From contig NW_020846942.1 of assembly GCF_003704095.1 (NCBI RefSeq), forward strand, positions 1,364,001 to 1,428,000: DNA of 64,000 nucleotides, in the 5' to 3' direction. Shown here in pieces: positions 139 to 61,001 of this stretch. The translations under genes were made by a program, and so were the position numbers. This stretch comes from Pocillopora damicornis. Its lineage: Eukaryota. The notes under the pieces were generated by a model. That model worked only from the letters and a program-made list of their open reading frames with translations, did no database searches and was not told where the DNA came from. How positions within the stretch are numbered: the stretch's first letter is position 1; every line of letters starts with the position of its first letter.

Positions 139-184
139 GTCTCCGTGGCGCAATCGGTTTGCGCGTTCGTCTGTTAACTGGAAA
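139..184 (+). pseudogene. 5' half of a tRNA-Asn(GTT), truncated after the anticodon arm
   Basis: GTCTCCGTGGCGCAATCGGTTTGCGCGTTCGTCTGTTAACTGGAAA closely follows the metazoan tRNA-Asn 5' half (GTCTCYGTGGCGCAATCGGTTAGCGCGTTCGGCTGTTAACCGAAA). The T-arm/B-box and 3' acceptor strand are absent. Confidence 0.75.
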
Positions 185-1228
185 TTTGACTAAAAAGACT
201 AAACGTCATGAACAGGCTACCGCTAAAAAGGAAATGCTAGAGGCGCAAGCAAAAGCAATGGTACTTGATGAGAAACTGAGAGAAGCACGGGAACTGCTTA
301 AAGGATTACAAACTCTTCCGCCAAAGAGTGACGAGAGCATGTCTGAGAGCACAGAAACACAAAAAACAGGGCAATGCAGTTCTGTTGTGGATGGCTCTTC
401 ACAGGAGTTAGACTCAAAAAGTATAACTGCAGGTTTTAATCCATAAAAAAATGTCATAAGTCCCGTCTATTGTTGGCCCCCCCCCCCTTTGTTAAACAAC
501 TTGAGTTTATTAAGGGTATGTTGGCCTCTAGAGGAAAACCTTGGCTATAAGTTTGACACCAAGCGAAAGGGCTAACACAAGCGTTTGTGATCAGTTTCCC
601 CGTCTGAGCTTTCTTTTTTAGGTAGTGTGAGCGAAGGGTTTTAGCTTAGAAAAGATATCCCTTCTGAGAAGATTAGCACGAAAACTCGCCAACCTTTTAA
701 AGAGTAAGAACACCCATAGCAACTCGTGGCCTGAAGAGGATTTCTTGGGTAATGGAGACCAAGCATCTAAACGGGGTCACTATGCAACCCAAACGCTTTT
801 AATTCGAGGTGCAATTGTCCAAAAAATTGTTTCAAGTAATCTAAGATGAGCTGCAATAGTTCAATGGTTTCAGGACTTTTTGAGAATGTTGAAGGGTGTT
901 AATTTGTCGCAGCTTTGCTCCAAAAAGATTGATTCACTTACAATTATTAGTTTAAGACATATCAAAAAACAAAAAAACCCAAGTGAATTTAGAATTCCTT
1001 CTCCGAGCCTATACTAAGTAACAAATGAGGCTAGGTAAGTGTTAAAATCCAAAATCTTTAGCACAGGAAATGTTTCCAGGTTGTTAATTTACAAGAAATT
1101 GAACGAGTACTGAACAAATAGTGGTCGCACCGAAACATCTTTGAGTTACTCACCAGTGCTTCTCACACCGAAACTTGAATAACTTGTTTTCTGGCCTTTT
1201 TAAGATTCATAAGACTTATATGTACTAG
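185..1228 (+). pseudogene. Inverted degenerate copy of the C-terminal coding end and 3' UTR of the giant coiled-coil gene
   Basis: The translation LTKKTKRHEQATAKKEMLEAQAKAMVLDEKLREARE...VVDGSSQELDS matches the end of ORF 20082..27557. The non-coding part matches the reverse complement of ~19553-20080, with an extra ~275 bp insertion at ~572-847. Confidence 0.85.
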
Positions 1229-1389: not shown

Positions 1390-1560
1390 TCTATCCATGA
1401 ATGTCATTAGGGAGACTACACGATTTAAAGGAGCGTGGGCGGAGTTGATATGCCAGGCTTCCAAACAAAGGCGCTGGTGGTAACGTCGATTAGTGGTGAA
1501 AATTTTAGAATTGTCCCACCCAACTGCATGGTTAGTTAGGCATGTGTGCTCCGATAAACA
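1390..1560 (-). mobile_element. Penelope-like retroelement fragment (C-terminal part of GIY-YIG endonuclease region)
   Basis: LSEHTCLTNHAVGWDNSKIFTTNRRYHQRLCLEAWHINSAHAPLNR fits the EH...H...WDN...R...EAWHI...LNR pattern at the end of Penelope ORFs. Confidence 0.7.
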
Positions 1561-1708
1561 CTGTAACTCCTCAGTTACATTCGTTAAATCTTTAAACCAG
1601 AGTAGCATCAAACCATGTCTGATTGTCCACCTGGTTGCTTTGTGCACTTTGATGCAAGAATTACTTTCGTTACACAAGTTCGAGCTGTTCGAACTTACAC
1701 AGAACTAT

Positions 1709-2460
1709 TTAAACACTGTCTGGATACTGGATCATACTAATAGCGTCATTAATAAACGGAAGCATCATTTTGACATCGAGGAAGACACCATATTGTCCCG
1801 CATTCGAACATTCGTCTTCGGCAGAAGCTACGCCTGTTAATACAAATCGTCCATCGATCCCTGGACAAACTAGAGGCGCACCCCTCTCGACATTACAACC
1901 TTGTGCTTTCCCTCGGGTGAAGTTTGCACATACTTCATACTCGGAGAGTTTTCCACTGTATGATGCATTACAGTCTTGAAATGGGGCTATTTCAACTTGG
2001 GCTTTGTTTAACACATCCGTGAAATTCCCGTCCTTGTTGGCAAACTGCCAACTGGTCACATAACACGAAGAATTTACAATAACGTTTGCATCGTCTTCCG
2101 GAAGACAGATAGGAAGAACTCGCTTGTGAAGGACAGCTTTTCGCTTCAATTTCAGCAGTGTGACATGCTGTTTTGCACTTGTGTAAATTTCTTTGACTTT
2201 AATACTTTCTTCGTATCCCTCGATGACTGTTCGGTCATGTTCACCGAGCCGGACCATCCAGTTATCGGTACTATGGCTTGTGTTCACACAAGTTGCCGAA
2301 GTCAGTATCCAGTGCCGGTTGATCAGAGAGCCGCTACACGCATGCCTATCTTTGAATAGCAGCTCAACCTGCCACGGCCAGGAGTTGGGACGAGCCTCAT
2401 TATGGCTGAGAGCAGGAGAACTTTCTGAGGATAGGAAGCGGGTGCCACATTTCGGATGAC
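1709..2460 (-). CDS. Polyserase-like gene, terminal exon: catalytically inactive trypsin-fold domain (domain 4)
   Basis: Acceptor tctgtttag|GTCAT at 2460 (phase 1). The exon reads HPKCG...NSWPWQV...CSGSLI. TSATC replaces TAAHC, HVTLLKL replaces DIALLKL and CNVERGAP replaces GDSGGP. There is no R-IVGG activation site. Confidence 0.85.
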
Positions 2461-2724
2461 CTAAACAGAATGAATAAAATAATCGAAATTCATCGGAGAA
2501 TCGCCATCATTAAATTACCGTCTGAAATAAAGAAGTTTACAGTCTCTTCAGTGCGGTTATTAAATTGGCTATGCTCTTCTGTCAATATTCTCTTCTTAAA
2601 ATTTCGCGAGTTTTCTTTCAAATTTTAAATGTAAATTTTTGGAAAACAAGGCACACCTGTATAAAGAAAAGTTAAGCAAGTGTATGTGAGAATTGAGGCA
2701 ATGATGGGTAACAGAAAAACCTTA

Positions 2725-3017
2725 AGGCGGCGAAATATGAGATACAGAAACCCTCAGTTTATCACGCAACATGAGCAAATTTGTTGCGTGACAAGTTGTG
2801 AGTTTGATGAAAAACGAGAAACAAACCCAAAATTTGCTGCTCAAAGTAGACCCGCGCTCTACTTTTCGCAATAAATTTCTTCAACCTGCAACAAATGTTT
2901 TTGTTGCACGACAAGTTGATCATGCATGGTGAAAAACGGGAAACATCGACCAAAACTTGCAACAAAACAATGTTGCGCGACAAGTTAAGGGTTTTTGTAT
3001 CTCGTATTTCGCCGCCT
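2725..3017. mobile_element. PIF/Harbinger-type MITE
   Basis: ~45 bp imperfect TIRs (AGGCGGCGAAATAYGAGATACA...), with TTA on both sides. The duplicate intron near 8498 carries an empty site with a single TTA. Confidence 0.85.
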
Positions 3018-3317
3018 TTACTCGTTAGGTTAACCTTTAGAGCAAACCTAACGAAGCAGATCTAAAAGGCAACCAAAGCCGTTTAGATACTTCTTTTCTT
3101 TTCACTCAGGGTGCTTTTCCATCAGTTAATTGTCATTAAAACTAAACCAAGAACAAAGGAAAATAGCTGAAAGGCGAAAAAGACAACCAAATAAGGCTAC
3201 GATTTGTTTCTGTTTTGCTACTCAGTAATTTGTTTCCATCGGGTAACACGTATTCTTATCGACCAATCACAGAGCGAGGCAAAAATGCACTATGTCGGCT
3301 AATTCTACACGACTTAC

Positions 3318-4076
3318 CGTATAGGGTACCCTCAATGAATGGCAGCATGTAGCGCACATCTAAATACACGCCATATTTATTAGCTCGGGCGCAGCCTTCA
3401 CCCCAGCTTACAACGCCCGTCAGTACGAAACGGCCATCCTCATTTTGACAAGCCAGCGGTCCTCCGCTATCACCAACACACGTGTCTTTACCACCGCCTT
3501 GAAAACCAGCGCAAAGATAACGTTCGTGTATAGTACCATTGTAAGAAATATTGCTGTTACAGACTTCTTTAGATACGAGGTTCACCTCCACTTCTCGAAG
3601 AACATCTGAATACTCAGTAGCATTTTCTTCTTGCATTCCCCATCCGGTGGCAAAACAGGATTTGCCTGTTGGAAAGGTAGTGTCCATATCAGGCAGACAT
3701 ATTGAATGTACTCGGCTGTGGAACACCGCTGGTCGCTTGAGCTTGACGAGGGCGATGTCGTAATCATCGAAAGAAGGGTCCAATCCCGGATGTATCGTGA
3801 CGTATTCAATTGCGATCCTTTCCTCGTAGCCTTCGAATTTTGTCGCGTTATGTTCCCCAACCCTTACATGCCACCAGTCTACTTGTGGAATATAATAAAA
3901 GCAATGGCCTGAGGTCACAACCCACGAAGGATCAATCAGCGAGCCGCCACAATAGTGAGAAGTACCATCAACAAAAAGAGCGACTTGCCATGGCCAGGTG
4001 TTGGGGTGAGCTTCTAGGCCTCCTACGATTCGGGAGGAAGGGGAAGGAACTGGACGAACACCACAAGATGGATATC
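3318..4076 (-). CDS. Polyserase-like gene exon: trypsin-like serine protease domain 3
   Basis: Acceptor tttctag at 4077 and donor TACG|gtaagt at 3318. Motifs SSR-IVGG, TSGHC, DIAL and GKDTCVGDSGGP (S1 Asp). Confidence 0.92.
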
Positions 4077-4639
4077 CTAGAAAATGGTAGAGTAACCAGA
4101 CAGAGAAGATTAGAACGTACATGAAAATCCTTTTAAGGAACCTTTACATTTGTGTATGGAGGTATCAAATGCCAAGTTCGAGGCTCTAAAATAAGATGTG
4201 TCTTTGACCAAACCTTGTGTAAAACGTTAAACATGACTTTTTTCATGCTTTTTTTAATCTTTCTCATCGTCACAAATTAAACCACTATCTTAATTTCAAG
4301 GAAAGTATCCTGAAATAATTCCCTGGAACTTGTAACAACCAAATTCAAATAATCCATAAAGCCAATGTTTTTTTTTTCAATATTTTTTTACATTAAATGT
4401 TGTAACTGGCACTATATGCACATGTACTATATCACACGACCCCTCAAGCATGTAATGCCTNNNNNNNNNNNNNNNNNNNNNNNNNNNNNNNNNNNNNNNN
4501 NNNNNNNNNNNNNNNNNNNNNNNNNNNNNNNNNNNNNNNNNNNNNNNNNNNNNNNNNNNNNNNNNNNNNNNNNNNNNNNNNNNNNNNNNNNNNNNNNNNN
4601 NNNNNNNNNNNNNNNNNNCTTACTTACTTACTTACTTAC

Positions 4640-5407
4640 CGTGCAGAGTGCTTTCAATGAATGGCGACATATAGCGTACATCTAAATACACGCCATATTT
4701 ATCAGCAACGCAACCGTCTCCCCATGAAACGATCCCGGTTAAAGTAAAACTTCCATCGTCCTTTGGACAAGCCAGTGGCCCTCCACTGTCACCCCTGCAC
4801 GAGTCTTTACCACCAGCTTCAACACCTGCGCAAAAATAACGTTCGTGTATGATCCCATCATAAGAGATGTTGCTGTTACAGACTTCTTTAGATACGAGGT
4901 TCACCTCTACTTCTCGAAGAACATCTGAATACTCAGCTGCATTCTCGTCCTGCTTTCCCCATCCGGTGGCAAAACAGGATTTACCAGTTGGTAAACCAGT
5001 GTCCATGTCTGGAAGACAAATGGCATGTACCAGCTTATGGAAAACCGCCGGTCGCTTGAGTTTGACGATCGCGATATCGTAATCGCCAGGATGTTTTTCG
5101 TCGCCTATAATGAATCCGGGATGGACTACTATGTTTTCAATATCAATCATTTCCTCGTATCCTTCGAATTTAGTTTCGTTGTGTTCACCAACCCTGACCT
5201 GCCATTGATCTGGTTTAGTGTACACATAGAAACAGTGAGCTGAAGTCACAACCCATAAAGGATCGATTAGAGAGCCTCCACAGTAGTGAGAAGTACCATT
5301 GACCAGAAAATCGACCTGCCACGGCCAGGAGTTGGGGCGAGCTTCGCGTTCAACAACGATACGAGACATTAAGGAAGGAAATGGCCGAATACCGCATTGT
5401 GGGTAAC
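4640..5407 (-). CDS. Polyserase-like gene exon: trypsin-like serine protease domain 2
   Basis: Acceptor cgttccag at 5408 and donor CACG|gtaagt at 4640. Motifs YPQCG..MSR-IVVE, TSAHC, DIAI and GKDSCRGDSGGP. Confidence 0.92.
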
Positions 5408-5708
5408 CTGGAACGAGAATTAAATAGTTTGGATGGATATGTGTATCACGTCAGAGAACTGTATTTAAATTTAATCCCACTATGATTCATAATACTTGGC
5501 TGTGAAGGATATGAAAAGCTATCGAGTAGCTGGTGATGTCTTGTTGAGGTAAGTGAAGTGTTTTAAGTATGTTCATTGGTAAGACGGGTAGAGTTATCAA
5601 ATACGCATCTCACAGTTTTACAAAAATACTCTTTAAGCTTTTTTCTGATGTGCACTAGGTGTTGTTATAAATGTAAACACTCGATTGAAGAAACGCCTAA
5701 AAGGTATG

Positions 5709-6091
5709 ATCCATGAACGATGAGACCCAAATTTTTGCACAGTTACATAATCAGTGATTTACTTTTTCCATTATTTATGGAAAATATTTGTTTAGGACAA
5801 TTCTTTTCTGTCAGGAAAGCTGGGTGGCTTTTATCATTTACCACGTGCAGCTAATAGTCCATTTGCTTGAACCGGAATGAGACTTAGGGTGATACAAACC
5901 TTGCTGCTTTTCAAATGCAAATTACTTTGTTATCATGCCAACTAGATACTGGTCTCTATCACAACAAGGTCACCTTCAGCCTCACTCCAAATCAAAGGCT
6001 TGGCAACTAAGTACACAACTGTAAAATGGCCTATTGCAGTTGCCATGGACATGTGTACCCAGAAAGCCATTGGGTCTCATCGTTCATTGAT
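5709..6091. mobile_element. TIR element with a second MITE nested at ~5853-6034
   Basis: Outer 22 bp inverted repeat ATCCATGAACGATGAGACCCAA / TTGGGTCTCATCGTTCATTGAT (21/22 match). The inner element is bounded by AATAGTCCATTT / AAATGGCCTATT. Confidence 0.6.
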
Positions 6092-6157
6092 AACGCTTTT
6101 TAGCCGTCGTTTTTACAATCGAGAGTATATTTTATTACCATCTTATTTAGTGCATAC

Positions 6158-6949
6158 CATATATGGTGCTTTCAATAAAGGGGAGAAATCTGCGGACATC
6201 AGCGTAAACCCCATATTTTTGCGGTCTCGCACATCCGACACCCCAAGTCACCACACCAGCCAGCACCCACTTTCCTGCGCCATCTTGACATACTAGGGGT
6301 CCTCCACTATCTCCTTGACAAGCGTCTTTTCCACCTTCAGGATATCCTGCGCACATGTAACGCTCCTTAATGTTACCGTTATAAGAGTCCTCTTTGTTGC
6401 ATTCCTCAAAAGAAACTAACGGCACTTCGTTCTCTCGAAGAATATCGGAAAAATTTCCATTTTCTTGGGTGTGACCCCAACCTGTCAAGAAGCACATTCG
6501 GCCAACCTCGTCGCTGATAGTCGAGTCTTCTTTGGGCAGACACACCGGACCGACTCGACTGTAGAACGTGACTGGTCTCTTCAGACGGTAAAGAGCAAAG
6601 TCGTAGTCTCCAGCGCTGACCATCGTCGGGCGGTTGTGTTTAAATCCCGGATGTATGTAGACCCTGTCTCCTTCGATAACCTCTTCGTAGCCCTCGAGGA
6701 CCTTGCTGTTGTGCTCTCCAACGCGTATTTCTTTTGGTGCCGATGAGTAAATTTCATCCACACAGTGAGCGGCTGTAATGATCCACTGAGGGTGAATGAT
6801 GGAGCCCCCGCACCAGTGCTTAGTCCCATTCTCTAGAAATTCAACTTGCCACGGCCATGAGTTTGGCTTAGCGATGTCGCCGCCGACAACTCGCTTTTGG
6901 CGGGAATGATAAATTTCGTCTTGTCGGCGACTTCCACATTTTGGAAAAT
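6158..6949 (-). CDS. Polyserase-like gene exon: trypsin-like serine protease domain 1 (upstream exons lost in gap)
   Basis: Acceptor ctttgcaaag at 6950 and donor TATG|gtatgc at 6158. Motifs FPKCG...RQKR-VVGG, TAAHC, DFAL and GKDACQGDSGGP. Confidence 0.92.
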
Positions 6950-7038
6950 CTTTGCAAAGAAAAAGAAGTTTTTACTGATTTACAATAGAGAGGAAACTTA
7001 TCAGAGATAAAGAAAATCGTGTTTTTGTATGACGACGT

Positions 7039-7138
7039 NNNNNNNNNNNNNNNNNNNNNNNNNNNNNNNNNNNNNNNNNNNNNNNNNNNNNNNNNNNNNN
7101 NNNNNNNNNNNNNNNNNNNNNNNNNNNNNNNNNNNNNN
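7039..7138. other. Assembly gap (others at 4461-4618, 15213-15312, 17632-17731, 38758-38857, 41318-41417, 63771-63870)
   Basis: Runs of N. Most are exactly 100 long, so they are placeholders of unknown size, and order and orientation across them are uncertain. Confidence 0.98.
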
Positions 7139-7885
7139 TTCGTCCAGTTCCTTCCCCTTCCTCCCGAATCGTAGGAGGCCTAGAAGCTCGCCCCAACACC
7201 TGGCCGTGGCAAGTTGATCTTCTCGTAAATGGTACTTCTCACTATTGTGGCGGCTCGCTGATTGATCCTTCGTGGGTTGTGACCTCTGGCCATTGCTTTT
7301 ATTTTTTTCCACAAGTAGACTGGTGGCATGTTAGGGTTGGGGAGCATAACGAGACAAAATTCGAAGGCTACGAGGAAAGGATCGAAATTGAACACGTCAC
7401 GATACATCCGGGATTAAACCTTTCTTACGGACCCGGCGATTACGACATCGCCCTCGTCAAGCTCAAGCGACCAGCGTTGTTCCACAGCCGAGTACATTCA
7501 ATATGTCTGCCTGATATGGACACTACCTTTCCAACAGGAAAATCCTGTTTTGCCACCGGATGGGGAAGGGAAGAAGAAAATGCAACTGAGTATTCAGGTG
7601 TTCTTCGAGAAGTGGAGGTGAACCTTGTATCTAAAGAAGTCTGTAACAGCAATATTTCTTACAATGGTGCTATACACGAACGTTATCTTTGCGCTGGTTT
7701 TCAAGGCGGTGGTAAAGACTCGTGTGGTGGTGATAGCGGAGGACCGCTGGCTTGTCAAAATGAGGATGGCCGTTTCGTACTGACGGGCGTTGTAAGCTGG
7801 GGTGAAGGCTGCGCCCGAGCTAATAAATATGGCGTGTATTTAGATGTGCGCTACATGCTGCCATTCATTGAGGGTACCCTATACG
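7139..7885 (+). CDS. Inverted duplicate of trypsin domain 3 exon (5' end in gap)
   Basis: RPVPSPSSR-IVGG...TSGHC...DIAL...GKDSCGGDSGGP...TLYG|gtaagt. Highly similar to the reverse complement of 3318-4058. Confidence 0.9.
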
Positions 7886-8400
7886 GTAAGTCGCGTAGAA
7901 TAAGCCGACATAGTGCATTTTTTCCTCGCTCTGTGATTGGTCGATGAGAATACGTGTTACCTGATGGCAACAAATCACTGCGAAGCAAAACAAAAACAAA
8001 TCGTAGCCTTGTTTGGTTGTCTTTTTCGCCTTTCAGTTATTTTTCTTTGTTCTGATTAGCCATTGGTATAGCTTTGGTTTAGTGTTAATGACAATTAACT
8101 GATGGAAAAGTATACACTGAGTGAAAAGAAAATAGGTACGGCTACACGGCTACCCTATACGGTGAGTCGTGTAGATTAACCCAGCATAGTGCATTTTTGC
8201 TTCGCTCTTTGATTGGTCGATGAGAATACATGTTACCCGATGGCAACAAATCCCTGAGTAGCAAAACAAATCAAATCGTGGCCTTGTTTGGTTGTTTTTT
8301 CCGCCTTTCAGTGATTTTAATTTGTCCTGATCAGTCACTGGTGTAGCTTTGGTTTAGTTTTAACTGATGGAAAAAGTATATACTAAGTGAAAAGAGAATA
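7873..8400 (+). repeat. Tandem duplication (~275 bp unit) spanning an exon donor site
   Basis: TACCCTATACGGTRAGTCG...GATTGGTCGATGAGAATAC...GGCAACAAATC occurs at ~7875 and again at ~8151. The minus-strand copy has only one unit. Confidence 0.8.
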
Positions 8401-8747: not shown

Positions 8748-9481
8748 GTCATCCGAAATGTGGCACCCGCTTCCTATCCTCGGAAAGTTCTCCTGCTCTC
8801 AGCCATAACGAGGCTCGTCCCAACTCCTGGCCGTGGCAGGTTGAGCTGCTATTCAAAGATACGCATGCGTGTAGCGGCTCTTTGATCGACCGGCACTGGA
8901 TTCTGACTTCGGCAACTTGTTTGAACACAAGCCACAATACCGATAACTGGATGGTCCGGCTCGGTGAACATGACCGAAAAGTCATCGAGGGATACGAAGA
9001 AAGTATTAAAGTCAAAGAAATCTACACCAGTGCAAAACATCATGTCACACTGCTGAAAATGAAGCGAGAAGCTGTCCTTCACAAGCGAGTTCTTCCTATC
9101 TGTCTTCCGGAAGACGATGCAAACGTTAACGTAAATTCTTCGTGTTACGTGACCAGTTGGCAGTCTGCCAAAAAGGACGGGAATTTCACGGATGTGTTGA
9201 ACGAAGCCCAAGTTGAAATAGCCCCATTTCAAGACTGTAATGCATCATACAGTGGAAAACTCTCCGAGTATGAAGTATGTGCAAACTTCACCCGAGGGAA
9301 AACCCGAGGTTGTAATGTCGAGAGGGGTGCGCCTCTAGTTTGTCCAGGGATCGATGGACGATTTGTATTAACAGGCGTAGCTTCTGCCGAAGACGGATGT
9401 TCGAATGCAGGACAATATGATGTCTTCATCGATGTCAAAATGATGCTTTCGTTTATTAATATGACTATCAGTGCGAACTAG
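8748..9481 (+). CDS. Inverted duplicate of the inactive trypsin-fold terminal exon
   Basis: Acceptor tgtttag at 8747. It carries the same TSATC and CNVERGAP substitutions, and ends ISAN* instead of ISMIQYPDSV*. Confidence 0.85.
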
Positions 9482-26000: not shown

Positions 26001-28599
26001 CAAATCCTCTTTTTCGTTCTCGGACAGCTTGAAATTCACTTGCATGTCTGCCATGTCTTTTTGAGTCTGCAAGAGGTCATCTTCAATTTCCTGGTTTTCT
26101 TTTTCGTACCGCTCTTGCAGCTCCTGAATCGCAGTGTGTTTTTCATTAAGTTCGTGGTATTTCAATTCCATGCCTGCGGCCATGACTTTAAGCTCAGCAA
26201 TAATTGAATCCTTCTTTTCAAGTTCTTTTTTATGTTCCCCTTCACTTTTTCTTTGCTCTGAAATCCCTTGCTGCAAGGCTTGGTACTCCTCGTGCAGAAT
26301 AGAACATTGCTCTTTTTCCCTCTCAAGGTTTTCTCTTAGTTGAAATATTTCCGCCTCGTAAACGTTTCCATGGATTTCCATTTTGTGCATCTCCTCGCGG
26401 GTTTCCTTAAGCTTCATCTCGAGGTCTTTGTTTTCTTTTTCTTTTCTCTGAAGTGTAAAACGAATCTCAGTCGTCTGCCTTTTTGCTTGTTGGAGAAGGG
26501 AATCAGGATCTGGTTTGTGTTCCTTCACCTCATTTCCGGGTCGTGACTCTAGTTCTGCTATTTTATCGAGAGATTCCTTCAATTGTAGATTTAGCTCTTC
26601 CACCTGCGATTGGCTCCGACATAGCTCTGTCTCAGATTCAGAAAGCCTTTGACTTATTAACGATATTCCTGACTCTAGGTCCCGAATATGTTGGTCAAAA
26701 TCAATTTCTTTTGGTGTGGCTTTCGATTCTACTTTGAAATTTTCATTTTCGAGGAGATCAAGGCCTGTCTTGTCCGTCTTCTTTGAAAGCTGGAGAATCT
26801 CGTCTTCTAACTCTTGAATGCGCAGCTTAGAGTAAAGGTTTTCAGCTTTTAAATCTTTCAGCTCTCCTTCGGAGTTGCTCAGCTTCATTCTTGAGTCGGA
26901 TAAGGATTTCTCAAGTTTCGCCTTGTCACTGTGTAAAATATCATTGATTTTCTTCAACTCCACTAGTTCTTTTCTGGTTGCTGTTAATTCCTCATTACAA
27001 ATATCCAGCTTTTCATTGTATATCTTTACCTCGTTTTCTAATCCAGTACAGTTTTCGCGGTACATTTGGAGCTGATCACGGATAGCATCTAGGTCATGCA
27101 ATAGAGAGAAGTTTTCGTGCTCGTTTCTTTGCATTTCTTCAAATTCGGTTTTCACCCGTATTGTGGCCATTTTATTCGAAACCATAAGTAAATCGTGTTT
27201 TAACGATTCGTTCTCTTCATGCAGCATCATCATAGACTCCTTACATACTTCAAGTTCTTGTTTGTTTCGTGAGAGTTCCATCCCTAACTCTGAAGTTTCA
27301 GCGTCCTGGTTACCATTAGGTATGTTAAGACTTAGGAGGTCTTTCTTTAGCTGTTGTACCTCTTTATCCAACTCCTCCTTTTCCTCCTGAAGTTTGTATA
27401 TGATGCTGTCCTGATTTCCGTTATACCAGCTCTCAATTTCTGTACATCTCTTTTGGCTTTTAAGTAATTCCTCTTGGTATCTTTTGCCTGTTTCTCGTGC
27501 CTCTACCACTTTATCTCTTAGTCTCATATTTTGTTCTGTGAGCTCTTTGATCCGCAATTCAAGATTTTCAACCTAAAGAAAGGAAAAATAATTTTCTATG
27601 ACATATTTGATTTGGCATTCAGGCGGTATTCATCCTCAAACAGAGTTATCCGTTGACAATATATTTATGATGGAAAGACGATTGTTTTAATGGAATTACA
27701 GGACGACTTTATGAAGAATCCAAAAGTTTAAGTTTGTCATGGGAAACGTTAATCTGTATGGAAGAAAGCATATTGTTCAAATGGTAAGTTCTGAATATTT
27801 TCAAATTCCAGCGAACAGCTGCGTAACTTTTCAATCAAGAATTTTCTCGGGTAAACTCGGCTGGGAATCTGGACACCCTTTCGGTGTTAACGTTCTACGA
27901 ATCCAATAACCCTAAACTTTACGAATTCGGCAACATTTATGAATTCTTTAGAACCTCTTCTAGTGTTAACCTAGACTTAGAGACATTACCAAATAAGTTA
28001 TGCTTATTTGAGTCTACGTACAATTTCTAAGAAGTTTAAAACTCAAAGGTTTTACTTTCGGCAGCGATTTTGGAGAAAGATTTCAATTTGGTTTGAAGGC
28101 TTTTTTCGACAAAGTCATTCTGAGGAGGTTGCTTATCCGACTCAGCCGTTCTGAATTAGGTATCCAGCCTAATAATTGCAAAGCACTGATTCTGTATACA
28201 AACGTTAACGCGTGCTTTGGAGCGGCCGTTGTTTGAATTAAGCCACAGATCACTGCTAACAAAGGGAAACATGACAACGTAGCTCCCTTGAGCGATGTTA
28301 GGCCTTCAAATGAGCGATGAAAAACTTTCTTGAAAATTCAAAAAACCCAAAATATTGTCTCTTAGGTTCACTGGTAGAAGTTTTTGCAAGAATCAGATAC
28401 TTGAAGATTTCGTGCAAAGACGACAACAAAGAAATATTTTGTGACTGGAAAAAATGTTTGTGCTCGAATACAAACTATAGCTTTCTCTCACCTCATCAGC
28501 GTCATTTTCATGACGTTTCTTAAGATTCAATCTTCCCTCGCTTTCTCTCTCCACAAGAACATTATTATTGTTGGAGGTATCGCTATGTGTGGTGTCCAT
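20082..28599 (-). CDS. Giant coiled-coil protein (~2530 aa; golgin/centrosomal/CENP-F-like composition, orthology not assignable)
   Basis: The uninterrupted exon 20082-27572 (acceptor ttctttag|GTT) is E/K/L/Q-rich with heptad character. A likely first coding exon is 28492-28599 (MDTTHS...NDADE|gtgaga), with phase 0 compatible splicing and an in-frame upstream stop. Confidence 0.85.
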
Positions 28600-30080: not shown

Positions 30081-31886
30081 TGCGTCTGTGAGTTAAAATA
30101 GAAGGGGAAAATTTCAATTCAAACAAAGTTTTGGAATTAGCGGGTCGCACTGTGAAATATGGCCCGCCGAATTTACCAGGAAAACTGGGGGAAAGCAAAC
30201 TACGGAAGCAATTTTTCACTTAGGCACACAGCCAAACAATGAGCTATTGTTTTTTCTGTTTCATACACCTTCAACCGAGGATCTCATAATTATTTTTTTA
30301 AAAGCTTTGTAGAAGGTTGTGCTGATTCATAGGAAAAATGTAACATCAACTTTATCTAATTATTCCGGTCCGGTTAACCCACGACACAACACTGGATTTT
30401 TAAACCTGCGACATTTAATAAATGTTTTGGAGATAAGATTATCGGACCGGGTGTTTGCATGTGGTTCTTTGAGCTATATTTCGTAGGAATGAAACGCAGA
30501 GCTTTGAAATCGCAGAGTTTTAAGGTGCAAACTGTTTTTATCACTGTTCAAGCGAAAAATTACGAATTTACCATGTGGGGAAAGCAAATCTATCATTAGT
30601 CATCATCTTACATTAGCATACTGGCTGCAATTCATCAGAATATCTTGTTCAAATTGCGTTGTCGCCTTTATTTAATATCCTGACGGAGAAATCTCTTCCT
30701 TCTAAAGGTAAACAACTCATTTACTATGGCGAGAAAGTGTCAATCTCATCAGTTTCCCCTTCGGCTTAATGGCGGCTCGCAGAATTTCTGTTTAAGGTGT
30801 TTAAATGCGTTATTTTTGCAAATTTCCTCCCTATTCGGGCAATACTAAAAGCACAGAATCTTGAAATTTTAACTATAGCGTGAATAACTGTCACTCTGAA
30901 AATGCGATAAGAATTGTATCACTCAATGCACCACTTTTAAGTCAATAGTTTCTCAGCCAAGTTTTAATTCAAGTAATTTTCGTATGCAACTTGTCTCTGT
31001 AACAACTAAATTGTCAGGATTTCGCAAGCAAACACGAGCGAAAAGTGAAAAAACAGCCAGAATACGTTTGATTGCAAAATATGGAATGATAAATTATTAG
31101 GAAACGAAGTCGAGTTAAATCAATTTATTTAGGTAAGCTATAAGATCGTTATTGTAATGAATATTTTTCTTTCACCTCAGAAGAGAGAGGTGTTAAAAGC
31201 TAAAACTTGAAAGGAAGGATTTTAAGCCTTTTCATTCAACATGTAACTGACAGCAAAGCTTTCTAGTTATTTTTACTCAAATTCGTCATTCTTAAATTCT
31301 CGCGCAATGTACGTCTAATTACAAGAAATACGTATTACTTGGTATGGCTAAAGTACAAACAAAAAATTTTAAAAATAAACAATTTATGAAACCTATTATT
31401 CATAACACAAAGACGTCTTTCATTACAGAAAGGAAAATATGTTCTTTTAAGCCAAAACTCGCAACGTGTCTGTCACTGAAGTTTTTTAATTCTTCGAAAT
31501 CAGCTGCAGGATTGAAACTTTAATTTCAATTGATTGCGTCGAAACACATCCGCTCTTAACATTTGGACGTGGTTTTAGTCGGGGATTAGGTTTCAGATCA
31601 AATTCTGGCGCATTCAGCGAAATAGATTAGAGTCCACGACTTTACTGTTTATTAATAAGCATTTTTTTTTCTCTCGGAAAAAAAAGCTGGTAAATTTTTC
31701 CGAAGACAGCTTTAACAGCTTTGAGACTACAATGTCTAAAAGATGAACTTTAGGAAAAAGCTGTGAAAAACAATTTTGAAAATAAGTTCCTGAAAGACGA
31801 GGATAAACTGACGTATCAAACTAATTTTGCAAATGGGAAACTTCTCGGAGTAGAAAAAAAAAAAAAAAAAGATTTGAGCATACATT

Positions 31887-32996
31887 ATGTATTGGACCAA
31901 CCGAGGATGGAATCTAAAGTTGGCTTTACTTTTCTTCACTACCGTTCAAGCTACAGCAAATAATTCGACGTCGGTATCATCTAATTCTCCTATCGTAACA
32001 GCTTCGACCGTAGCTCTTGCTGTTGTTGTGGTTTTCGCCTTGTTGGGAAATACCCTCGTTTGCTTTGCATTCTATCACTCGACCAACCTCAGATGTGTTA
32101 CAAACATATTCATTGTGTCATTAGCCATCACAGACATCCTTGTGGCTTCCGTTTCAATTCCGATCTGGCTTGTTATTCAGAACACGGATTGTATCAAAAC
32201 AATGCAGGCCTGCGATCCGATTCTCATCTCGTTTTGGAGGTGCTTGGACATCCTGTTTTCCACCGCTTCGATCATGAACTTGTGCGCCATAAGCTGTGAT
32301 AGGTACATAGCTATCACTTCACCTCTAAGGTACTCACAGATCCTCACCAAAACCCGCGCGATCATCGCCTTGATTGGCCTGTGGTCATATTCAGCAACCA
32401 TTGCTGCTATCAACATACACGGCGGGATTTACTACCCTGTACTGGTGTTTGTGGTGTCTTTCCTTCTTCCTCTCTCCGTAATGGTATACTCCTACTCACG
32501 CATATTTCTTGCCGCCCTTCGCCAAGCGCGCCGAATCCAACCTCTCCGGCAAGCGTTCTATTTCAAGCGGGAGATCAAGGCGGCAAAAACGCTGGCGATT
32601 GTCATGGGTGCGTTTATAGTCTGTTGGGCGCCGTTTTTCATCATGAATATCTTGGTTACGTTTTTAAAGTTTTATGTCCCGTTGGTAGCGACTTTCGCAA
32701 TCAAACTGCTTCATTATGGAAACTCCGCTCTAAATCCTGTCATTTACTCAAGCTCCAATCGAGATTTTCGACACAAAATTTTGCGAGTCCTCCCTTGCAA
32801 ATGCGGGCAAATTCAAAGCAATCTAAGCGAAGCTGTGGTCCAATTCTGGAGCACGAGTTTCCGAAGTACGTTCGGTGCAAGTTCTACATTTCGAAACGAA
32901 AGTGCTATGGAAAGAAATAATAACATTGACGACGAAATTACTAGTCGAACGAAAACAAAAGTTGAAAACGGTTTTTGCGAAAGACCAACTCAATAG
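31887..32996 (+). CDS. Intronless class A GPCR, biogenic amine receptor-like
   Basis: GN in TM1, SLAITD in TM2, TM3 CLDILFSTASIMNLCAISCDRY with the amine-binding Asp, KAAKTL, CWAPFF and NPVIY. Confidence 0.92.
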   Translation: MYWTNRGWNLKLALLFFTTVQATANNSTSVSSNSPIVTASTVALAVVVVFALLGNTLVCFAFYHSTNLRCVTNIFIVSLAITDILVASVSIPIWLVIQNTDCIKTMQACDPILISFWRCLDILFSTASIMNLCAISCDRYIAITSPLRYSQILTKTRAIIALIGLWSYSATIAAINIHGGIYYPVLVFVVSFLLPLSVMVYSYSRIFLAALRQARRIQPLRQAFYFKREIKAAKTLAIVMGAFIVCWAPFFIMNILVTFLKFYVPLVATFAIKLLHYGNSALNPVIYSSSNRDFRHKILRVLPCKCGQIQSNLSEAVVQFWSTSFRSTFGASSTFRNESAMERNNNIDDEITSRTKTKVENGFCERPTQ

Positions 32997-38000: not shown

Positions 38001-38757
38001 TAACAGCCAACCTCAATCAAACGCGGAAGACCTGAAAAGTGAGTACAAAGGAATCGTTAAAAAGATTTTAAGAATACTACGTTAGTTTAGTAATCAACAA
38101 AGGAGGCACTTTGCGTAGTCTGTTCGTCCAGTCCCGAGAAGGACTGTTGCGGTTGTAGCAACTGAAGTTTTTACAACCTAAGCGGGTAATCGGAGTCAGA
38201 ACGAGGGTAAGTGCATAGTCTTTGATATGCGAGTGCTTTGTCATTTTCATGTACATAAATCTTATTTAAACATTTAAGACTTCGCTCCTAGCCTCATTTT
38301 GAGGATCCTTAAAATTCCCAATTGGCTATTGACTGAGCGGGGGAAATGAACTGCTGACTGCATTCGGTATTCACCCATGAAAATTGGAAATAAGTCTTAA
38401 ATTAATATAAGATTTTCATACGAGAGTGGTTGTTACTTGAAAATACCCCCTCAGCTTACTTTATGGACGCGTTACTTACCTACATTTCCTTCTCACCTTT
38501 TTGCAAACACTTTACACCTGCGTCGTTACCATGGGTACAACTACCAACATTTCCCCACCCAGAGTGAGGGCAGCTTAGCAGAGATCTCTCTCCTCCTGAG
38601 CACTGCACATTGCTAAGCCATACGGGACCTTGACCTTGACCATATTTGGCTTTCTTTGTCTCTTGGATCGCTTTGACCAGTCCCAGTTCATTGCATACAA
38701 CGAAGGCGTCTTTGATGTCCCAGGCTTTGTCGCACACCGTACCCCATTGGTTGTCAT
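35086..38757 (-). CDS. SRCR plus 2x WSC-like domain protein, paralogue A (5' end in or beyond gap)
   Basis: Phase-compatible exons: gap-38497 (SRCR: WGTVCDKAW..GQGPVWLSNVQCSGGE..CTHGNDAGVKC), 37875-38031, 36789-36901, 35625-35774 and 35086-35264. Two repeats of GC[YW]KD...IDW...C...YF[GA]xQFYGECW...GVG...NxVY. Confidence 0.85.
35868..36125. mobile_element. G-rich TIR repeat family member
   Basis: Same core and termini as the 34130-34380 copy. Confidence 0.7.
36398..36614. mobile_element. TTAA-flanked (piggyBac-type) MITE; similar degenerate elements at ~36933-37136 and ~48507-48679
   Basis: TTAA-CACCTTGACATCTAA ... TTAGGGTATAAAGGG-TTAA ends. Confidence 0.6.
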
Positions 38758-39199
38758 NNNNNNNNNNNNNNNNNNNNNNNNNNNNNNNNNNNNNNNNNNN
38801 NNNNNNNNNNNNNNNNNNNNNNNNNNNNNNNNNNNNNNNNNNNNNNNNNNNNNNNNNAATGCAATAAACAATTCGCTTTAATTACTTTTTTTCCCTCCAG
38901 CTGGAGGATATTTTCCCGACGTGTAAAGACTGTTGAAATCGGCATGCCTGCCGCTATCGGCAAACCAAAGCCGGCGGCTCCTTTCGACGGAAGTCACGTG
39001 GCTCTCGTTGTGCTTCATTGCGTCACACTTTCCAAAAGTTAAGCACCTATAAACGCTTCGATGGTAGATAATATTATAATGTAACTACTGATATATGAAC
39101 ATAAAGTGGCGAGTTGACGGTGAAGGAGACTTTCAAGAGAGATAATCCGGCAGGGAATTACAGCGTCCATCGCCGAGGAAACAATTTTCCCTATACAGA

Positions 39200-53233: not shown

Positions 53234-54310
53234 TCAACACGCACTCTCGTAAAGATGCTCCCGACATTCTGTGATAGAGCTACCAACTTCCCTCGACGTT
53301 TGCTGACCGCGTAAATCGGTAAGAGGAATTGCTGACCCTCGGAGTCTGCTGAATTCAAACTTAAAAGCCTGAAAGAAGTCCCTTTTCATGAAGGTGTAGA
53401 GTAATGGATTGGCTACAGATGTCGCATATCTGATGATCAGTGACACTTGAGAAGGTACAACCAATTTAGAAGAGTCAATGGCCGAAAGCTGGTGCAATAA
53501 AAACAAGACAAACCAGGGGAACCAACATATCAGGTATACAGACGCCATCATGGCGAAGAGTGCCAAAGACTTGCCTTCAGAACTTGACCGGTTACGTAAG
53601 CTTGTTGAACGTCGAATTATAAGCACCCCGCCACCCTTTTTCCGATGTAGACTCTTCGATCTTCTATTGATACCTTTGAACATATCAATGAATGCATAGA
53701 CCAAGAAGATGTAAGGTAAAATTAAAGCAAACACAATACAGAATATCGAAAACGAGAGTGCGTATCTTGAAGATTCTGGTTTAAGTACTGGATGTATTTT
53801 ACTGATCCATGTGAAAGGGAGAAAAGATACAACAAGCGAGGAAAGCCAAACAATTATTAAAACTGTCAAAATGCTTTTCTTGTGAAGTACTCGATGTTTA
53901 AATGGAGCCTTGATTGCCAAATAACGCTCTCCTGTCACAACAACGATGTGATACACAGTAGCAATGGCCACAAAGTTATGAAGGACAGTCAAAACAAATC
54001 CAAGATAAAACCTAATCGATCCACTGGGTTGTATCAACGGCGTGAAAACTAGGAATGCGAAAAGTGGAATGATTATAAAACCACAGAAGAAGTCGCAAAC
54101 AGCCAAGCTGAAGAGTGGATAATTTGAAGTGGTTCGCAGAGTTTTCCTCTTAAAGAAGAGATAAAACACTGAGCTGTTGATAACAACGATGGCCATCGCA
54201 AGAGAGAACAGTACTGCAACCTCAACTTTTTTTGTCTCTTTATATAGACTTGTTAGCCTTGTGGAATTTTCCGTCTCGTTGGAATATGACTCGTGCTGCA
54301 TGGTGTTCAT
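53234..54310 (-). CDS. Intronless class A GPCR (orphan)
   Basis: First ATG at 54310, N-glycosylation sequons in the N-terminus, SLAVCD, TGERY, CWFPW and NPLLY. Confidence 0.9.
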   Translation of the reverse strand: MNTMQHESYSNETENSTRLTSLYKETKKVEVAVLFSLAMAIVVINSSVFYLFFKRKTLRTTSNYPLFSLAVCDFFCGFIIIPLFAFLVFTPLIQPSGSIRFYLGFVLTVLHNFVAIATVYHIVVVTGERYLAIKAPFKHRVLHKKSILTVLIIVWLSSLVVSFLPFTWISKIHPVLKPESSRYALSFSIFCIVFALILPYIFLVYAFIDMFKGINRRSKSLHRKKGGGVLIIRRSTSLRNRSSSEGKSLALFAMMASVYLICWFPWFVLFLLHQLSAIDSSKLVVPSQVSLIIRYATSVANPLLYTFMKRDFFQAFKFEFSRLRGSAIPLTDLRGQQTSREVGSSITECREHLYESAC

Positions 54311-55734
54311 TGCTTTGGCAGCAGGAGACAATAAATAGTGGTATTGCTAAACGAACTTCAATTCTTATTACAGAAAAATTAGTTGTCGGCGTCCTTCTGG
54401 ATTCATCTTGCCGCTTGGAAAAAGAGTCAGCGATGGAAACAGCCGTCTGAAACACAAACTTTTATCATTTAATTTGCCTAAAATGATAACACTTTTCAAA
54501 CTGAGTAATCATGCTGCATATTTAAATTTGATTAGTATCTATTAAGAACATCTACTCCATTACGTTTTTACTTCGTATATTTTGCTGAGTTGAGGTTCTT
54601 ATTGGTAATACCCAGAAAATAACCTACTTATGATTTTTTTCCCGTTTTCTTTACACTATTTTGTTGGTGTTGGTCAGTGTTGGCTGAGGTTCAGTAGTCT
54701 CATTTAATTCCTTCATCAATTTGCGCTTACAATTAACAGCTTCATCTCCACATGTAGGCAGGTGAGTTAGCTCAAGGTGGCTTTCGGTGTACACAATGTT
54801 GAACATTTTCCATAACTCATACTAAATGTCCAATTAAGGTTATGGATGTACTCGGCACTCCGGTAATCAGTGCAAAATGCGGCACGACTTAGGGTTCGAC
54901 CAGACAAAAGCATCTTCAAAAGTGTCCATTTCCGTCTCAGGCAAAATTAATCAAAATATTATCAACCACATTAACAATTTCATCTTGCTCTAGACTCCCC
55001 ACATTAATACGTTAACATTTAAAAACGCGCATATTTTCATGCAATTTCGTCTATACTGAATCCACACAAAACACCCGAAAACGCAGACTGAGGCTGCTGT
55101 ACTTGAAGTCTTTTTCGTCAACGTTTTCAAAATCCTCGTTTCCATTTGTTCACAAAAGAAAATGGTTTTCAAAAAGATGCTTTTTTACATCAGATCACTT
55201 TTGTAACTGTTGACGAAAGGCTTTGTTTTCGGGTGTTTCAGTCTAAGTGAGGGCCAAAAACAAATCTGAAAGTATGCCTTTCCGGACGAAAACGCATCAA
55301 TTTAGATATAGATTACGATAAAACCCTCCTTTTCTGCGAAATTCGTCGCACGAGTTTAAAAAAAAATCAGAAACAAAAAATTGTTAGCGCGCCGTAAAGA
55401 ACTTTGTGAGTGATACCTTACTCCCAGTGTTTGCTCGGCGCACTAGTCACCATTTGGTTTTTTCGCTAATTTTTTTTTTGGACTCCACGACGGCCTTCGC
55501 TGAAAAAGAGGGAGTGCTCGCAGTCCAGTTTAGATAGGGCGTCCGTCCTTTCCCCAAGGAAACGTTAAGCCACAGTATTTCTTATGATCGTGTAAATTCC
55601 AGTGATTTCATTCTGAGAGATTAAATTGTATATCTCTTCATATCTATTTTAGCAAAATCGTCGCTGGATCCGATTAGGAATTTTAAAAAAAGGTAATCTT
55701 TCCAAGAATGTAGTCATATAAAATCTGTGAATAT

Positions 55735-58697: not shown

Positions 58698-60002
58698 GTA
58701 TGGCAGAGGAAACTAATCCAAGTGAAACAGTGAAACGTCAAGTACGTCACAAAGATGCATAATTACAAGAAAAAATACGCACAAATTTTCGCAGACCAAG
58801 ACCTATGAAAATACGGTATCCGTAGCAACGCCAGTTGTTTTGTGCAAGAAGAACAAAAATTGATTACAAATAAGCTTTAAATAGATGCATAAATAACAGC
58901 TTTCCTCCGATTAAGGAGAGAGAAACATATATTTAGGGTAGAGGGCCATTTTGGGGACACTCTCATAAGGTCCTAAACTAAAGGGCAGTTTCCTTCAGGG
59001 GACCCTTTTTCATCTCCTGCGGATGTTCCTTTACTGGCGCCAAGTTTTAATGTAACGTTGAAACTCTGGCGGAAACCAGGTAACCTGGAATTTATTTCCA
59101 CAAGATCAAGCACAACGGTCGGGAAAGATTAAGAAACGGCCAAAAAATACTATGGGTAAATAAACGACACAAATGAGTAAATAAATGAATAAAAGTATAA
59201 ATACAACAACCCTTTTTCATAAATGATTTTGGGCTCTTTAATTTCCTAGTATAAAACAAAGTACTCGAGTTTATTTGTTCATTTCACATTTAATGTTTGT
59301 TCAACAGTCCACCACTGTTTTCTTTATGGTGAGCTGGCCAGTATACGGGTTTTTTTCTTATTAGACGAACATGACCATAAAAAAGGGTGAAATTACTGAG
59401 AAAGTAATTTTACAGCAAATTTTCTAAGTTAAGTTTGATACATTTTCCGAAAAATCCTGCTTGTCTTAAAACTAATAACCCCCCTTTCCATCATAAGCTT
59501 CAACGTGCACAGAGAGTGTAAAATTAATAAAAACCTTGCCATTTCACTGGCCAATTGAAAAAAGGGATAGGCAATTGGCAGTTGAACATTTTATAGGTCT
59601 TTTCCTCAAAGAAAAGTTTTCGACGCCGGATCGAGAGATCGACTTCCTAGTTTTAAATAAACACATTCAACTTAGGAAATGTTTCGACTTTTTGCGTTTC
59701 CAGTTGCGGTGTGTTTGTTCAGGTGGCAGCTGCAAGCGCTCTCTTTTCATTTGTAAATTAATTTTGAGACTACGAAGCTTTCCTCTTGTTTATTCAAACA
59801 TATATTACAAGGACGAATTTCATCCAATTCGGTTATAACTTATATTCAAACGAGGTGAATCCAGAACAGAATCATTTTGTTCGAACCGTCAAAGTTCTTT
59901 TGTCTCCTTTTAAACTATTAAACCGAGAGGCCACTACAAGACGTAAATATTTGGTTTCTTTCCGACGAATTTTCATCGTAAATATAAGCTTCCATCATCG
60001 AC

Positions 60003-61001
60003 ATGGAAAATGTAACCTCGTTAAACGAACACAATGCGGCCTCTCCAGCAGCTACGCTTCAATTAACCTGCATGTTTAAGTTTGTAGTATTGCAAACTGG
60101 TTCCTCGTTTTTAGATCTTCCCACATCGATTGTCAGTATTGTATCTGCCATCCTTGCAATCATGGGGAACACTTTAATCTTGATATCTTTGTTTAGGACA
60201 GCTTCAATTGCTCCGCCTTCTAAAGTACTTCTGGGTAGTCTGGCCTTAACAGATCTAGGTGTGGGGCTGCTCGCGCAACCATTGTACATCGTGAAGAGTC
60301 TCTCCTCCGACAAAGACACAAAATGTTTCCTTGGTTTACTCTTCGATCTGTTTTCTGGTCATCTCTCGATCACTTCCTTCTTTACAATGATGTTTATTAG
60401 CGTCGATAAGTTCCTGGCGTTACATCTAAAGCTGCGCTATCGAATTGTTGTTACGCTCAAGCGCTCGATTCTTGTTGTCGTTCTCGTTAGACTGGTTGCC
60501 TTGCCATGGTCTCTATCATACATCTGGTTTTCTGAAGTTTACTTCATGTTAATATTATCGATTATGCCATGGTGTTTATTGATCTCCTCCCTTGCCTTTA
60601 TCAAAATCCATCGTATCCTTCGACGACAGAAAAGGACATATCAAAACGAAACGCAGCTGGAATCTGTGCGTCGAGCCAACATCCTTAAAATATCCAGATT
60701 CAAGAAATCAGTCAACAGCATGTTATTCGTTTTCTGTGCGCTGTTGATTGCATACGTTCCCGCGTGGATGGTGATTTTATTACGAACCATCTACGGCAAT
60801 ACCGAGATTTTGAAAATGGCCACGAAATTGACAATGACTCTTATACTTATGAACTCCGCCTGCAATCCCATCTTATACCTGTGGAGGATGGAAGATCTGC
60901 GTGTCGCTGCTTTAGAAGCACTCGAGGGTTTAATCCCAAAATCACATTTTAGGAGCACATCGACAAATGCTATCGAGAGTTTTGAGTTACAAGTTGATTG
61001 A
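60003..61001 (+). CDS. Intronless class A GPCR (adenosine/melanocortin-like orphan type)
   Basis: GN, SLALTDLGVGLLAQP, ISVDKF (DRY variant), AYVP and NSACNPILY. Confidence 0.9.
   Translation: MENVTSLNEHNAASPAATLQLTCMFKFVVLQTGSSFLDLPTSIVSIVSAILAIMGNTLILISLFRTASIAPPSKVLLGSLALTDLGVGLLAQPLYIVKSLSSDKDTKCFLGLLFDLFSGHLSITSFFTMMFISVDKFLALHLKLRYRIVVTLKRSILVVVLVRLVALPWSLSYIWFSEVYFMLILSIMPWCLLISSLAFIKIHRILRRQKRTYQNETQLESVRRANILKISRFKKSVNSMLFVFCALLIAYVPAWMVILLRTIYGNTEILKMATKLTMTLILMNSACNPILYLWRMEDLRVAALEALEGLIPKSHFRSTSTNAIESFELQVD

What the first reader, a model, noticed from the sequence alone, without database searches (positions are those of the whole stretch)
1709..6949. Four trypsin domains in one polypeptide: a possible self-contained activation cascade
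Seen: what the ORF track shows as separate genes are symmetric phase 1-1 exons, one whole protease domain each, that splice in frame. Activation sites differ: RQKR-VVGG (furin consensus), SR-IVVE, SR-IVGG and none. Each domain keeps the pro-peptide Cys (xCG) and the [IV]CLP Cys, and the three intact domains have the S1 Asp. Established: polyserases and ovochymases are multi-protease polyproteins that often include a dead domain, and the Cys1-Cys122 bond tethers chains after cleavage. Inference: furin activates domain 1, which could cleave after Arg to activate domains 2 and 3 within a disulfide-linked chain.
Basis: partly seen in the sequence, partly recalled or inferred. Interest (0 to 1): 0.7.

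Follow-up and report, generated by a model that had tools for sequence, protein, structure and literature searches.

The report
Coral four-in-one secreted protease chain
A stony coral gene splices four trypsin-like domains, the last one catalytically dead, behind a likely secretion signal and a discoidin domain; the first domain has a furin-type cut site and would likely switch on the middle ones, a layout kept across reef corals.

Summary
Four minus-strand exons each encode one whole trypsin domain and join in frame (1023 codons, one stop). RNA contigs show all three splice joints (3/3, 2/3 and 3/3 RNA runs), so the exons are not separate genes.

One RNA contig runs from a signal-peptide exon through an F5/8C (discoidin) domain into D1 and D2. 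Those exons lie outside the window on the opposite strand, most likely a scaffold mis-orientation of two tandem gene copies.

Orthologs are already annotated 'TMPRSS9-like': Acropora and Montipora have 4 domains, the Orbicella cluster 3, Actinia 2. In 9 of 9 stony-coral orthologs, D1 has RQ[KR]R, the middle domains a single Arg, and the last domain is dead. The domains form their own clade, apart from vertebrate polyserases and ovochymases.

The cascade is untested. Activation within one molecule is doubtful, and this species' D2 (IVVE) lacks Gly19, present in 458 of 459 fetched activation sites.

Verdict: a real, independently evolved cnidarian polyserase-like protein; a new variant of a known kind.

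The parts
6158..6949 (-). Exon for trypsin domain D1 (RQKR|VVGG, intact triad, Asp189), phase 1-1. Its upstream exons (signal peptide, F5/8C) lie outside the window at G000:C3577:1352685-1358062 on the + strand; exon 4 of that copy is not assembled
   Evidence: RNA joints; 5' end assigned by RNA letters; only one exon-4 match in G000
5408..6157 (-). Intron D1-D2, 750 nt, GT-AG; holds a high-depth repeat at about 5890-6035
   Evidence: skipped in 3 of 3 RNA runs laid, not in X19
4640..5407 (-). Exon for trypsin domain D2 (SR|IVVE, intact triad, Asp189, Arg192), phase 1-1
   Evidence: X2 contig differs from the window only at 5187 over 4878-5405, so IVVE is transcribed
4077..4639 (-). Intron D2-D3; spans the N-gap 4461-4618
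   Evidence: skipped in 2 of 3 RNA runs (X1, X2); gap bridged by 28 letters in X19
3318..4076 (-). Exon for trypsin domain D3 (SR|IVGG, intact triad, Asp189), phase 1-1
2461..3317 (-). Intron D3-D4, 857 nt
   Evidence: skipped in 3 of 3 RNA runs
1709..2460 (-). Terminal exon for pseudo-protease D4 (no activation site, triad lost, 10 Cys kept), stop at 1709-1711
   Evidence: RNA contigs of X1 and X3 run on to about 1610
7139..7887 (+). D3' of the second gene copy (5' end cut by the N-gap 7039-7138), 92% nt to D3. That copy's exons 1-4 and D1' lie outside the window at G000:C3577:1358354-1363012 on the - strand, open frame
8748..9481 (+). D4' of the second gene copy, 91% nt to D4 with flanks
   Evidence: D4'-like contig in RNA run X2

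Best explanation
One coral gene splices a predicted signal peptide, a discoidin (F5/8C) domain, three trypsin domains with intact catalytic triads and one dead trypsin domain into a single chain of about 1,200 residues; furin likely cuts the first domain on its way out of the cell, and the activated first domain would then likely cut the single-Arg sites of the middle domains, more probably on neighbouring molecules than on its own chain. Shown: exons, splicing, domain order, motifs, conservation. Inferred from known trypsin-family chemistry: each Cys1-Cys122 bond holds each cut piece to the next, so the product would stay one four-chain covalent unit (F5/8C+pro1, D1+pro2, D2+pro3, D3+pro4+D4). 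Inferred, untested: the order of cuts; surface binding by F5/8C to concentrate the molecules; D4 as an uncleaved scaffold or binding module. In this species D3 is the likelier second active site, and D2 (IVVE) may be weak or altered.
For: RNA joints at all three introns, GT-AG, in 2-3 studies, absent from the intron-covering run X19. One 1940-nt contig runs from the 5' UTR through SP, F5/8C and D1 into D2. Orthologs are single chains: 7 with 4 domains (2 Montipora, 5 Acropora), 2 examined with 3 domains (Orbicella cluster, including 945-aa proteins on 3.6-3.7 kb contigs), 1 with 2 domains (Actinia). In 9 of 9 stony-coral orthologs D1 has RQ[KR]R; 16 of 16 middle domains have a single Arg followed by IVGG or VVGG; 9 of 9 last domains lack both site and triad. 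D1 has Asp189, Gly216 and Gly226, i.e. an Arg/Lys pocket that matches the P1 Arg of D2 and D3. No TM-like segment in 4 of 4 orthologs tested (best 19-residue hydropathy 0.9-1.2, against about 3 in two TM-bearing distant relatives). Purifying selection on D1 vs D1' (dN/dS 0.15, p 3e-07) and D2 vs D3 (0.19).
Against: No biochemical evidence of any cut. Any Arg-specific protease could open the middle sites, so a conserved pattern does not prove self-activation. Actinia D1 has PQAR|IIKG, with no furin site, and two distant 2-domain relatives have polybasic sites on both domains, so the hierarchy is not family-wide. No single RNA contig spans the whole chain, and the D2-D3 joint was missing in 1 of 3 RNA runs. 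dN/dS for D3 vs D3' (0.53) and D4 vs D4' (0.56) is not significantly below 1. The signal peptide of the transcribed copy was read by eye, not by a predictor. The trans-over-cis preference rests on recalled fold geometry, not on a calculation.
Confidence: 0.5

Rival explanations
1. One chain, but no internal cascade: furin makes D1 active, and an outside trypsin-like protease (digestive, wound or immune) opens the middle domains as a separate trigger.
For: Single-Arg|IVGG is the generic zymogen site. [quoted passage not shown] Actinia lacks the furin site, so it needs an outside activator or autoactivation even for D1.
Against: An Arg-specific D1 is tethered next to the sites, and the furin-first order is kept in 9 of 9 stony-coral orthologs.
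Confidence: 0.27
2. One reading: D1 cuts D2 and D3 within the same disulfide-linked molecule, independent of concentration.
For: Covalent tethering gives a high local concentration; 11-12 residues lie between Cys1 and the P1 Arg. D1 reaching D3 would need less strain than D1 reaching D2 (inference).
Against: Only 10 residues run from the last-helix Phe to the next Cys1 in 9 of 9 linkers measured. In the trypsin fold that helix lies away from the active-site face (recalled, not computed). D2's IVVE may not form a normal active enzyme.
Confidence: 0.13
3. The chain is a polyprotein whose domains are released and act separately, or it stays largely uncut after D1 as in polyserase-2.
For: Polyserase-1 releases three independent domains; polyserase-2 and -3 stay in one chain (PMC1435904, abstract and passages).
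Against: Cys1 and Cys122 are present in every complete coral domain aligned, which predicts tethering. The middle domains keep consensus Arg sites, unlike the uncut domains of polyserase-2 and -3.
Confidence: 0.08
4. The four exons are separate genes, or the four-domain order is an assembly artefact across the N-gap.
For: An N-gap lies between D2 and D3; the locus is duplicated and probably mis-scaffolded.
Against: The D2-D3 joint is seen in RNA of 2 studies and the gap is bridged in X19. No leader exon was found in 3 of 3 introns. Four-domain orthologs exist in 7 acroporid species.
Confidence: 0.02

Closest known systems
Coral RefSeq/GenBank models 'transmembrane protease serine 9-like' / 'Polyserase-2' (XP_068686246.1, XP_029188696.2, XP_015759636.1, KAK2573735.1, XP_020611829.1, XP_031558945.1)
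   Same: Orthologs: F5/8C plus 2-4 trypsin domains; for the Montipora and Orbicella-cluster proteins D1 is 70-79%, D2/D3 70-78% and D4 54-63% identical; same site hierarchy in the stony corals.
   Different: Automatic names only; no TM segment despite the name. No held paper cites any of these six accessions in its main text. The IVVE of D2 was seen only in this species.
Human polyserase-1 (TMPRSS9)
   Same: Tandem trypsin domains in one chain, processed after translation, with the first two active (PMC1435904 abstract).
   Different: Type II TM plus LDLRa there, against SP plus F5/8C here; vertebrate TMPRSS9 domains form a separate clade (98 support) from the coral clade (99).
Human polyserase-2 and -3 (PRSS36, PRSS53; gene symbols recalled)
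   Same: Secreted, tandem domains, dead or non-activatable later domains, predicted Cys tether across the activation site (PMC1435904 passages).
   Different: Their later domains lack the Arg-IVGG site and stay uncut; here the middle domains keep it. Not in the coral clade (one polyserase-2 model in the tree, long branches).
Ovochymases (OVCH1/2)
   Same: Secreted polyproteases with several trypsin domains.
   Different: They carry CUB domains (PF00431); not in the coral clade.
Nematostella triple trypsin NVJ_127465
   Same: Three tandem-duplicated trypsin domains with a signal peptide; the paper concludes that triple-trypsin proteins evolved more than once (PMC6767649 passages and supplement).
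   Different: All three triads are intact and it is listed as multi-exon; orthology was not tested (no sequence in hand).

Membership tests
Peptidase S1A, trypsin-like (D1-D3) | His57/Asp102/Ser195 triad and GDSGG motif | tested here: met
   Pfam PF00089
Peptidase S1A, trypsin-like (D1-D3) | Asp189 with Gly216/Gly226 (Arg/Lys pocket) | tested here: met
Peptidase S1A, trypsin-like (D1-D3) | Arg|[IV][IV]xG activation site | tested here: inconclusive
   met in D1 and D3; D2 has IVVE, while Gly19 stands in 458 of 459 distinct sites among 419 fetched proteins (the pattern required R/K-[IV][IV] and a downstream WPW)
Peptidase S1A, trypsin-like (D1-D3) | Measured proteolytic activity | not testable with these tools
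   needs recombinant protein
Serine protease homolog, non-catalytic (D4) | Trypsin domain with the triad lost | tested here: met
   PF00089 E 3e-41; His, Asp and Ser replaced here and in 9 of 9 orthologs
Polyserase as a structural class | Two or more serine-protease domains in one translation product | tested here: met
   RNA joints; orthologs; full-length single molecule not seen
TMPRSS9 / polyserase-1 orthologous family | N-terminal type II TM segment and LDLRa module | tested here: not met
   SP + F5/8C instead; no LDLRa in Pfam scans; no TM-like segment after residue 25
TMPRSS9 / polyserase-1 orthologous family | Domains group with vertebrate TMPRSS9 domains | tested here: not met
   separate clades, 99 and 98 SH-aLRT, quick tree of 80 domains
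Ovochymase | CUB domains alongside the protease domains | tested here: not met
   no PF00431 in 4 of 4 orthologs scanned; linkers of 10 residues
Furin substrate | R-x-[KR]-R at the cut, in the secretory path | tested here: inconclusive
   motif present and conserved in 9 of 9; cleavage not testable

The most novel reading that the evidence does not exclude
Stony corals pack a whole proteolytic cascade into one gene: a furin-fired initiator protease, one or two downstream proteases and a dead cofactor-like domain, held together by disulfides and aimed at a surface by a discoidin domain of the kind used by clotting factors V and VIII. Cascade length is tuned by copying a one-exon protease module.
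Probability: 0.25. Interest if true: 0.75.

Novelty: new variant of a known kind. Interest (0 to 1): 0.45.

Why it matters
Polyserases are known, but in the papers I could see the activator of their later domains is not shown to be the first domain. This coral family has built-in controls: one domain per exon, natural 2-, 3- and 4-domain forms, a furin site on D1 only, and a conserved dead last domain. That makes 'can one chain carry an ordered cascade?' directly testable with simple point mutants. It is also a further case of independent origin of the polyserase design, and it shows how whole-domain exons get called as separate genes.

Tried and rejected
1. AlphaFold2 on the 945-aa ortholog with a 5-row alignment gave mean pLDDT 34 and pTM 0.25: unusable, no fold search run, cis geometry not computed.
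2. ESM Atlas with the Actinia ortholog: no hit at 0.9 or above, no model.
3. The search of earlier findings by sequence, words and place: nothing.
4. Representative search with D4: dominated by unrelated multi-trypsin proteins; of the 150 listed only a few short ORFs belong to this family.
5. Literature: 10 searches, read as listings only except where cited. None showed a paper on this coral family. The library lacks most subscription papers, and the original polyserase-1 and ovochymase papers were not held, so what they say about self-activation was not seen.
6. No source was found for the effect of Gly19 changes; that point rests on conservation and recall.
7. 'D2 is orthologous by position to acroporid d2' is rejected (AU p 5e-08). 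'Window D2+D3 form one clade' is neither shown nor rejected (p 0.19) (16 rows, three Acropora species left out).
8. Depth differences between domains in RNA contigs were not used, since contig depth cannot rank parts of a gene.
9. No D1'-type RNA contig appeared in the listed pieces of X1, X2 or X6; the tables are cut, so this does not show silence.
10. No D2' was found in G000; it may lie in a gap.
11. Complex prediction was not run, as an enzyme-substrate pair is a poor use of it.
Full report
Observation. Four minus-strand ORFs at 6147-6971, 4632-5450, 3256-4143 and 1709-2506 each hold a trypsin domain. Splice sites give exons 6949-6158, 5407-4640, 4076-3318 and 2460-1709. Joined, they read as 1023 codons with only the final stop; all three joints are phase 1, and the other two frames carry 41 and 65 stops. 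D4 is terminal rather than symmetric, and lacks His57, Asp102 and Ser195.

One transcript. A run search listed 22 runs; I laid 6 of them as Logan contigs. On 1500-7038, three RNA runs from three studies skip the D1-D2 intron (3 of 3), the D2-D3 intron (2 of 3) and the D3-D4 intron (3 of 3) at GT-AG ends. Run X19, of unrecorded kind but covering the introns, shows none of these joints and bridges the D2-D3 gap with 28 letters. No single contig spans the gene; in X1 four contigs overlapping by 20-30 bases tile it from D1 to the 3' end.

The missing N-terminus. Negative positions below count back from the window's first base (0 = G000:C3577:1364000). A genome search found a second D1 (96%) 5' of the window. 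Around it lie exons for a signal peptide and an F5/8C domain (PF00754, E 1e-15; closest solved chains neuropilin-2 and factor VIII). One 1940-nt contig of X2 runs from the 5' UTR through exons 1-4 into D1 and D2. Its D1 matches the window's D1 (6 differences) and not D1' (32). Its exon-1 region matches a third piece, on the + strand at -11315..-5938: the 10 differences in X2 and 11 in X1 equal the counts between the two copies, and the 5 positions listed all agree. So the transcribed gene is split between opposite strands in the scaffold. Both ends of the block -5837..7038 are N-gaps. Flipping it turns all three repeat pairs that cross its ends into direct repeats and gives two head-to-tail gene copies. 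I read this as a scaffolding error over a tandem duplication (inference). The full chain would be about 1,197 residues if exons 3 and 4 have the second copy's lengths. Whether the second copy has its own D2 is open.

Relatives. Orthologs with F5/8C exist as single annotated chains: Montipora foliosa and M. capricornis (1189 aa, 4 domains), five Acropora species (1188-1189 aa, 4 domains), an Orbicella cluster (945 aa, 3 domains; several on 3.4-4.2 kb contigs, presumably transcripts) and Actinia tenebrosa (704 aa, 2 domains, no dead one). In 9 of 9 stony-coral chains examined (one isoform per species, two from the Orbicella cluster, one of these cut at the N-terminus), D1 has RQKR or RQRR, 16 of 16 middle domains have a single Arg before IVGG or VVGG, and the last domain has neither site nor triad but keeps 10 Cys. 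Against a family-wide rule: Actinia D1 has no furin site, two distant 2-domain relatives with a TM-like tail have polybasic sites on both domains, and M. foliosa d2 reads GDSSA.

Evolution. In a quick ML tree of 80 domains, 27 family domains form one clade (SH-aLRT 99), apart from vertebrate TMPRSS9 (98), polyserase-2, ovochymases and other cnidarian multi-trypsins; the careful search did not finish. D1, the middle domains and the dead domain each form their own clade across corals (99, 99, 100). Middle domains group by lineage, not by position (AU p 5e-08 against position). The four-domain form therefore either arose more than once or has been homogenised by gene conversion. The shared YPSCG start of D3 here and of Montipora d3 hints at the latter, so I leave it open. 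dN/dS is 0.15 for D1 vs D1' and 0.19 for D2 vs D3 (both significant), and 0.53 and 0.56 for D3 vs D3' and D4 vs D4' (not significant). Whole-domain exons are uncommon: 70 of 72 Nematostella trypsin domains are multi-exon (PMC6767649, passage).

Mechanism. Established (PMC7294081 and PMC5073354, passages): cutting before Ile16 lets the new N-terminus pair with Asp194. Recalled: furin cuts after R-x-[KR]-R, and Cys1 pairs with Cys122. D1's Asp189 pocket fits the P1 Arg of D2 and D3, so D1 is the nearest candidate activator. Two cautions. First, only 10 residues separate the last-helix Phe from the next Cys1, and that helix lies away from the active site (recalled), so cutting the adjacent domain in cis looks strained; trans-activation among surface-bound molecules seems likelier. 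The fold that might have tested this failed. Second, D2's IVVE is transcribed (X2) but lacks Gly19, found in 458 of 459 activation sites among fetched proteins, so D2 may be impaired in this species. The substrate and tissue are unknown.

Comparison. Polyserase-1 releases its domains; polyserase-2 and -3 stay whole because later domains lack the consensus site (PMC1435904, abstract and passages). Multi-trypsin proteins evolved repeatedly, including in Nematostella (PMC6767649: passages, section 7 and part 1 of 2 of one supplement). That supplement lists F5_F8_type_C among its Pfam domains without a taxon in the part I read, so the F5/8C-trypsin pairing has probably been logged before; the other supplements may say more. 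The protein works like a polyserase but is not a TMPRSS9 or ovochymase ortholog. Ten literature searches showed no paper on this family (see Tried and rejected).

Verdict. The single multi-protease chain is about 95% certain; the ordered furin-then-D1 activation, likely in trans, about 50%; the strict within-molecule cascade about 13%. New variant of a known kind; interest 0.45.

Noticed in passing
G000:C3577:1358163-1371038 (ends at window 7038): Block bounded by N-gaps that is probably inverted in the scaffold; RNA joins + strand exons outside it to - strand exons inside it.
   Followed up: yes
window 182-572 and 848-1227 vs 19553-20352: Inverted 81-85% copy of the 3' end of the large coiled-coil ORF; likely marks the end of the duplicated segment.
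   Followed up: partly
window 20082-27572 (-): Uninterrupted 2496-codon ORF that looks coiled-coil by eye, with strong AT skew; not identified.
   Followed up: no
window 6131-6157 (-): Reading on past the D1 donor gives a stop after 3 codons and an AATAAA 21 nt in; a like signal is seen after D1'. It could give a short SP-F5/8C-D1 form, or be chance in AT-rich DNA.
   Followed up: no
window 4706: Three extra bases in D2 in runs X1, X2 and X19 relative to the window, in the loop after Cys220: an in-frame length polymorphism.
   Followed up: partly
window 1719-2109: Run X19 shows D4- and D4'-like contigs at equal depth at 1719-1812 but only the variant type at 2005-2079, suggesting mosaic alleles or gene conversion.
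   Followed up: no
window 5890-6035 and 1560-1650: Short high-depth repeats, with inverted joints inside intron D1-D2, and just past the 3' end.
   Followed up: no
window 13966-17524 (+): Exons of a probable Ig-domain receptor tyrosine kinase (V-set E 1e-4, below Pfam's cut-off; kinase fragment E 2e-5).
   Followed up: partly
window 31878-32996, 39146-40318, 53234-54346, 59988-61001: Four apparently intronless GPCR-like ORFs; the first is 7tm_1 (E 2e-45), the others judged by eye.
   Followed up: partly
window 45277-48324 (+) and 38480-38881 (-): SRCR and WSC-like exons (for 45277 and 46504; the others by eye).
   Followed up: partly
L006, L007 (G000:C1169), L008 (G000:C796): Three more trypsin domains, each largely in one open frame; they form their own clade (98) outside this family.
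   Followed up: partly
proteins P0013 and P0016 (unnamed ENA and Logan contigs): Distant relatives with two polybasic-site trypsin domains, no F5/8C hit in P0013, and a C-terminal TM-like segment.
   Followed up: partly
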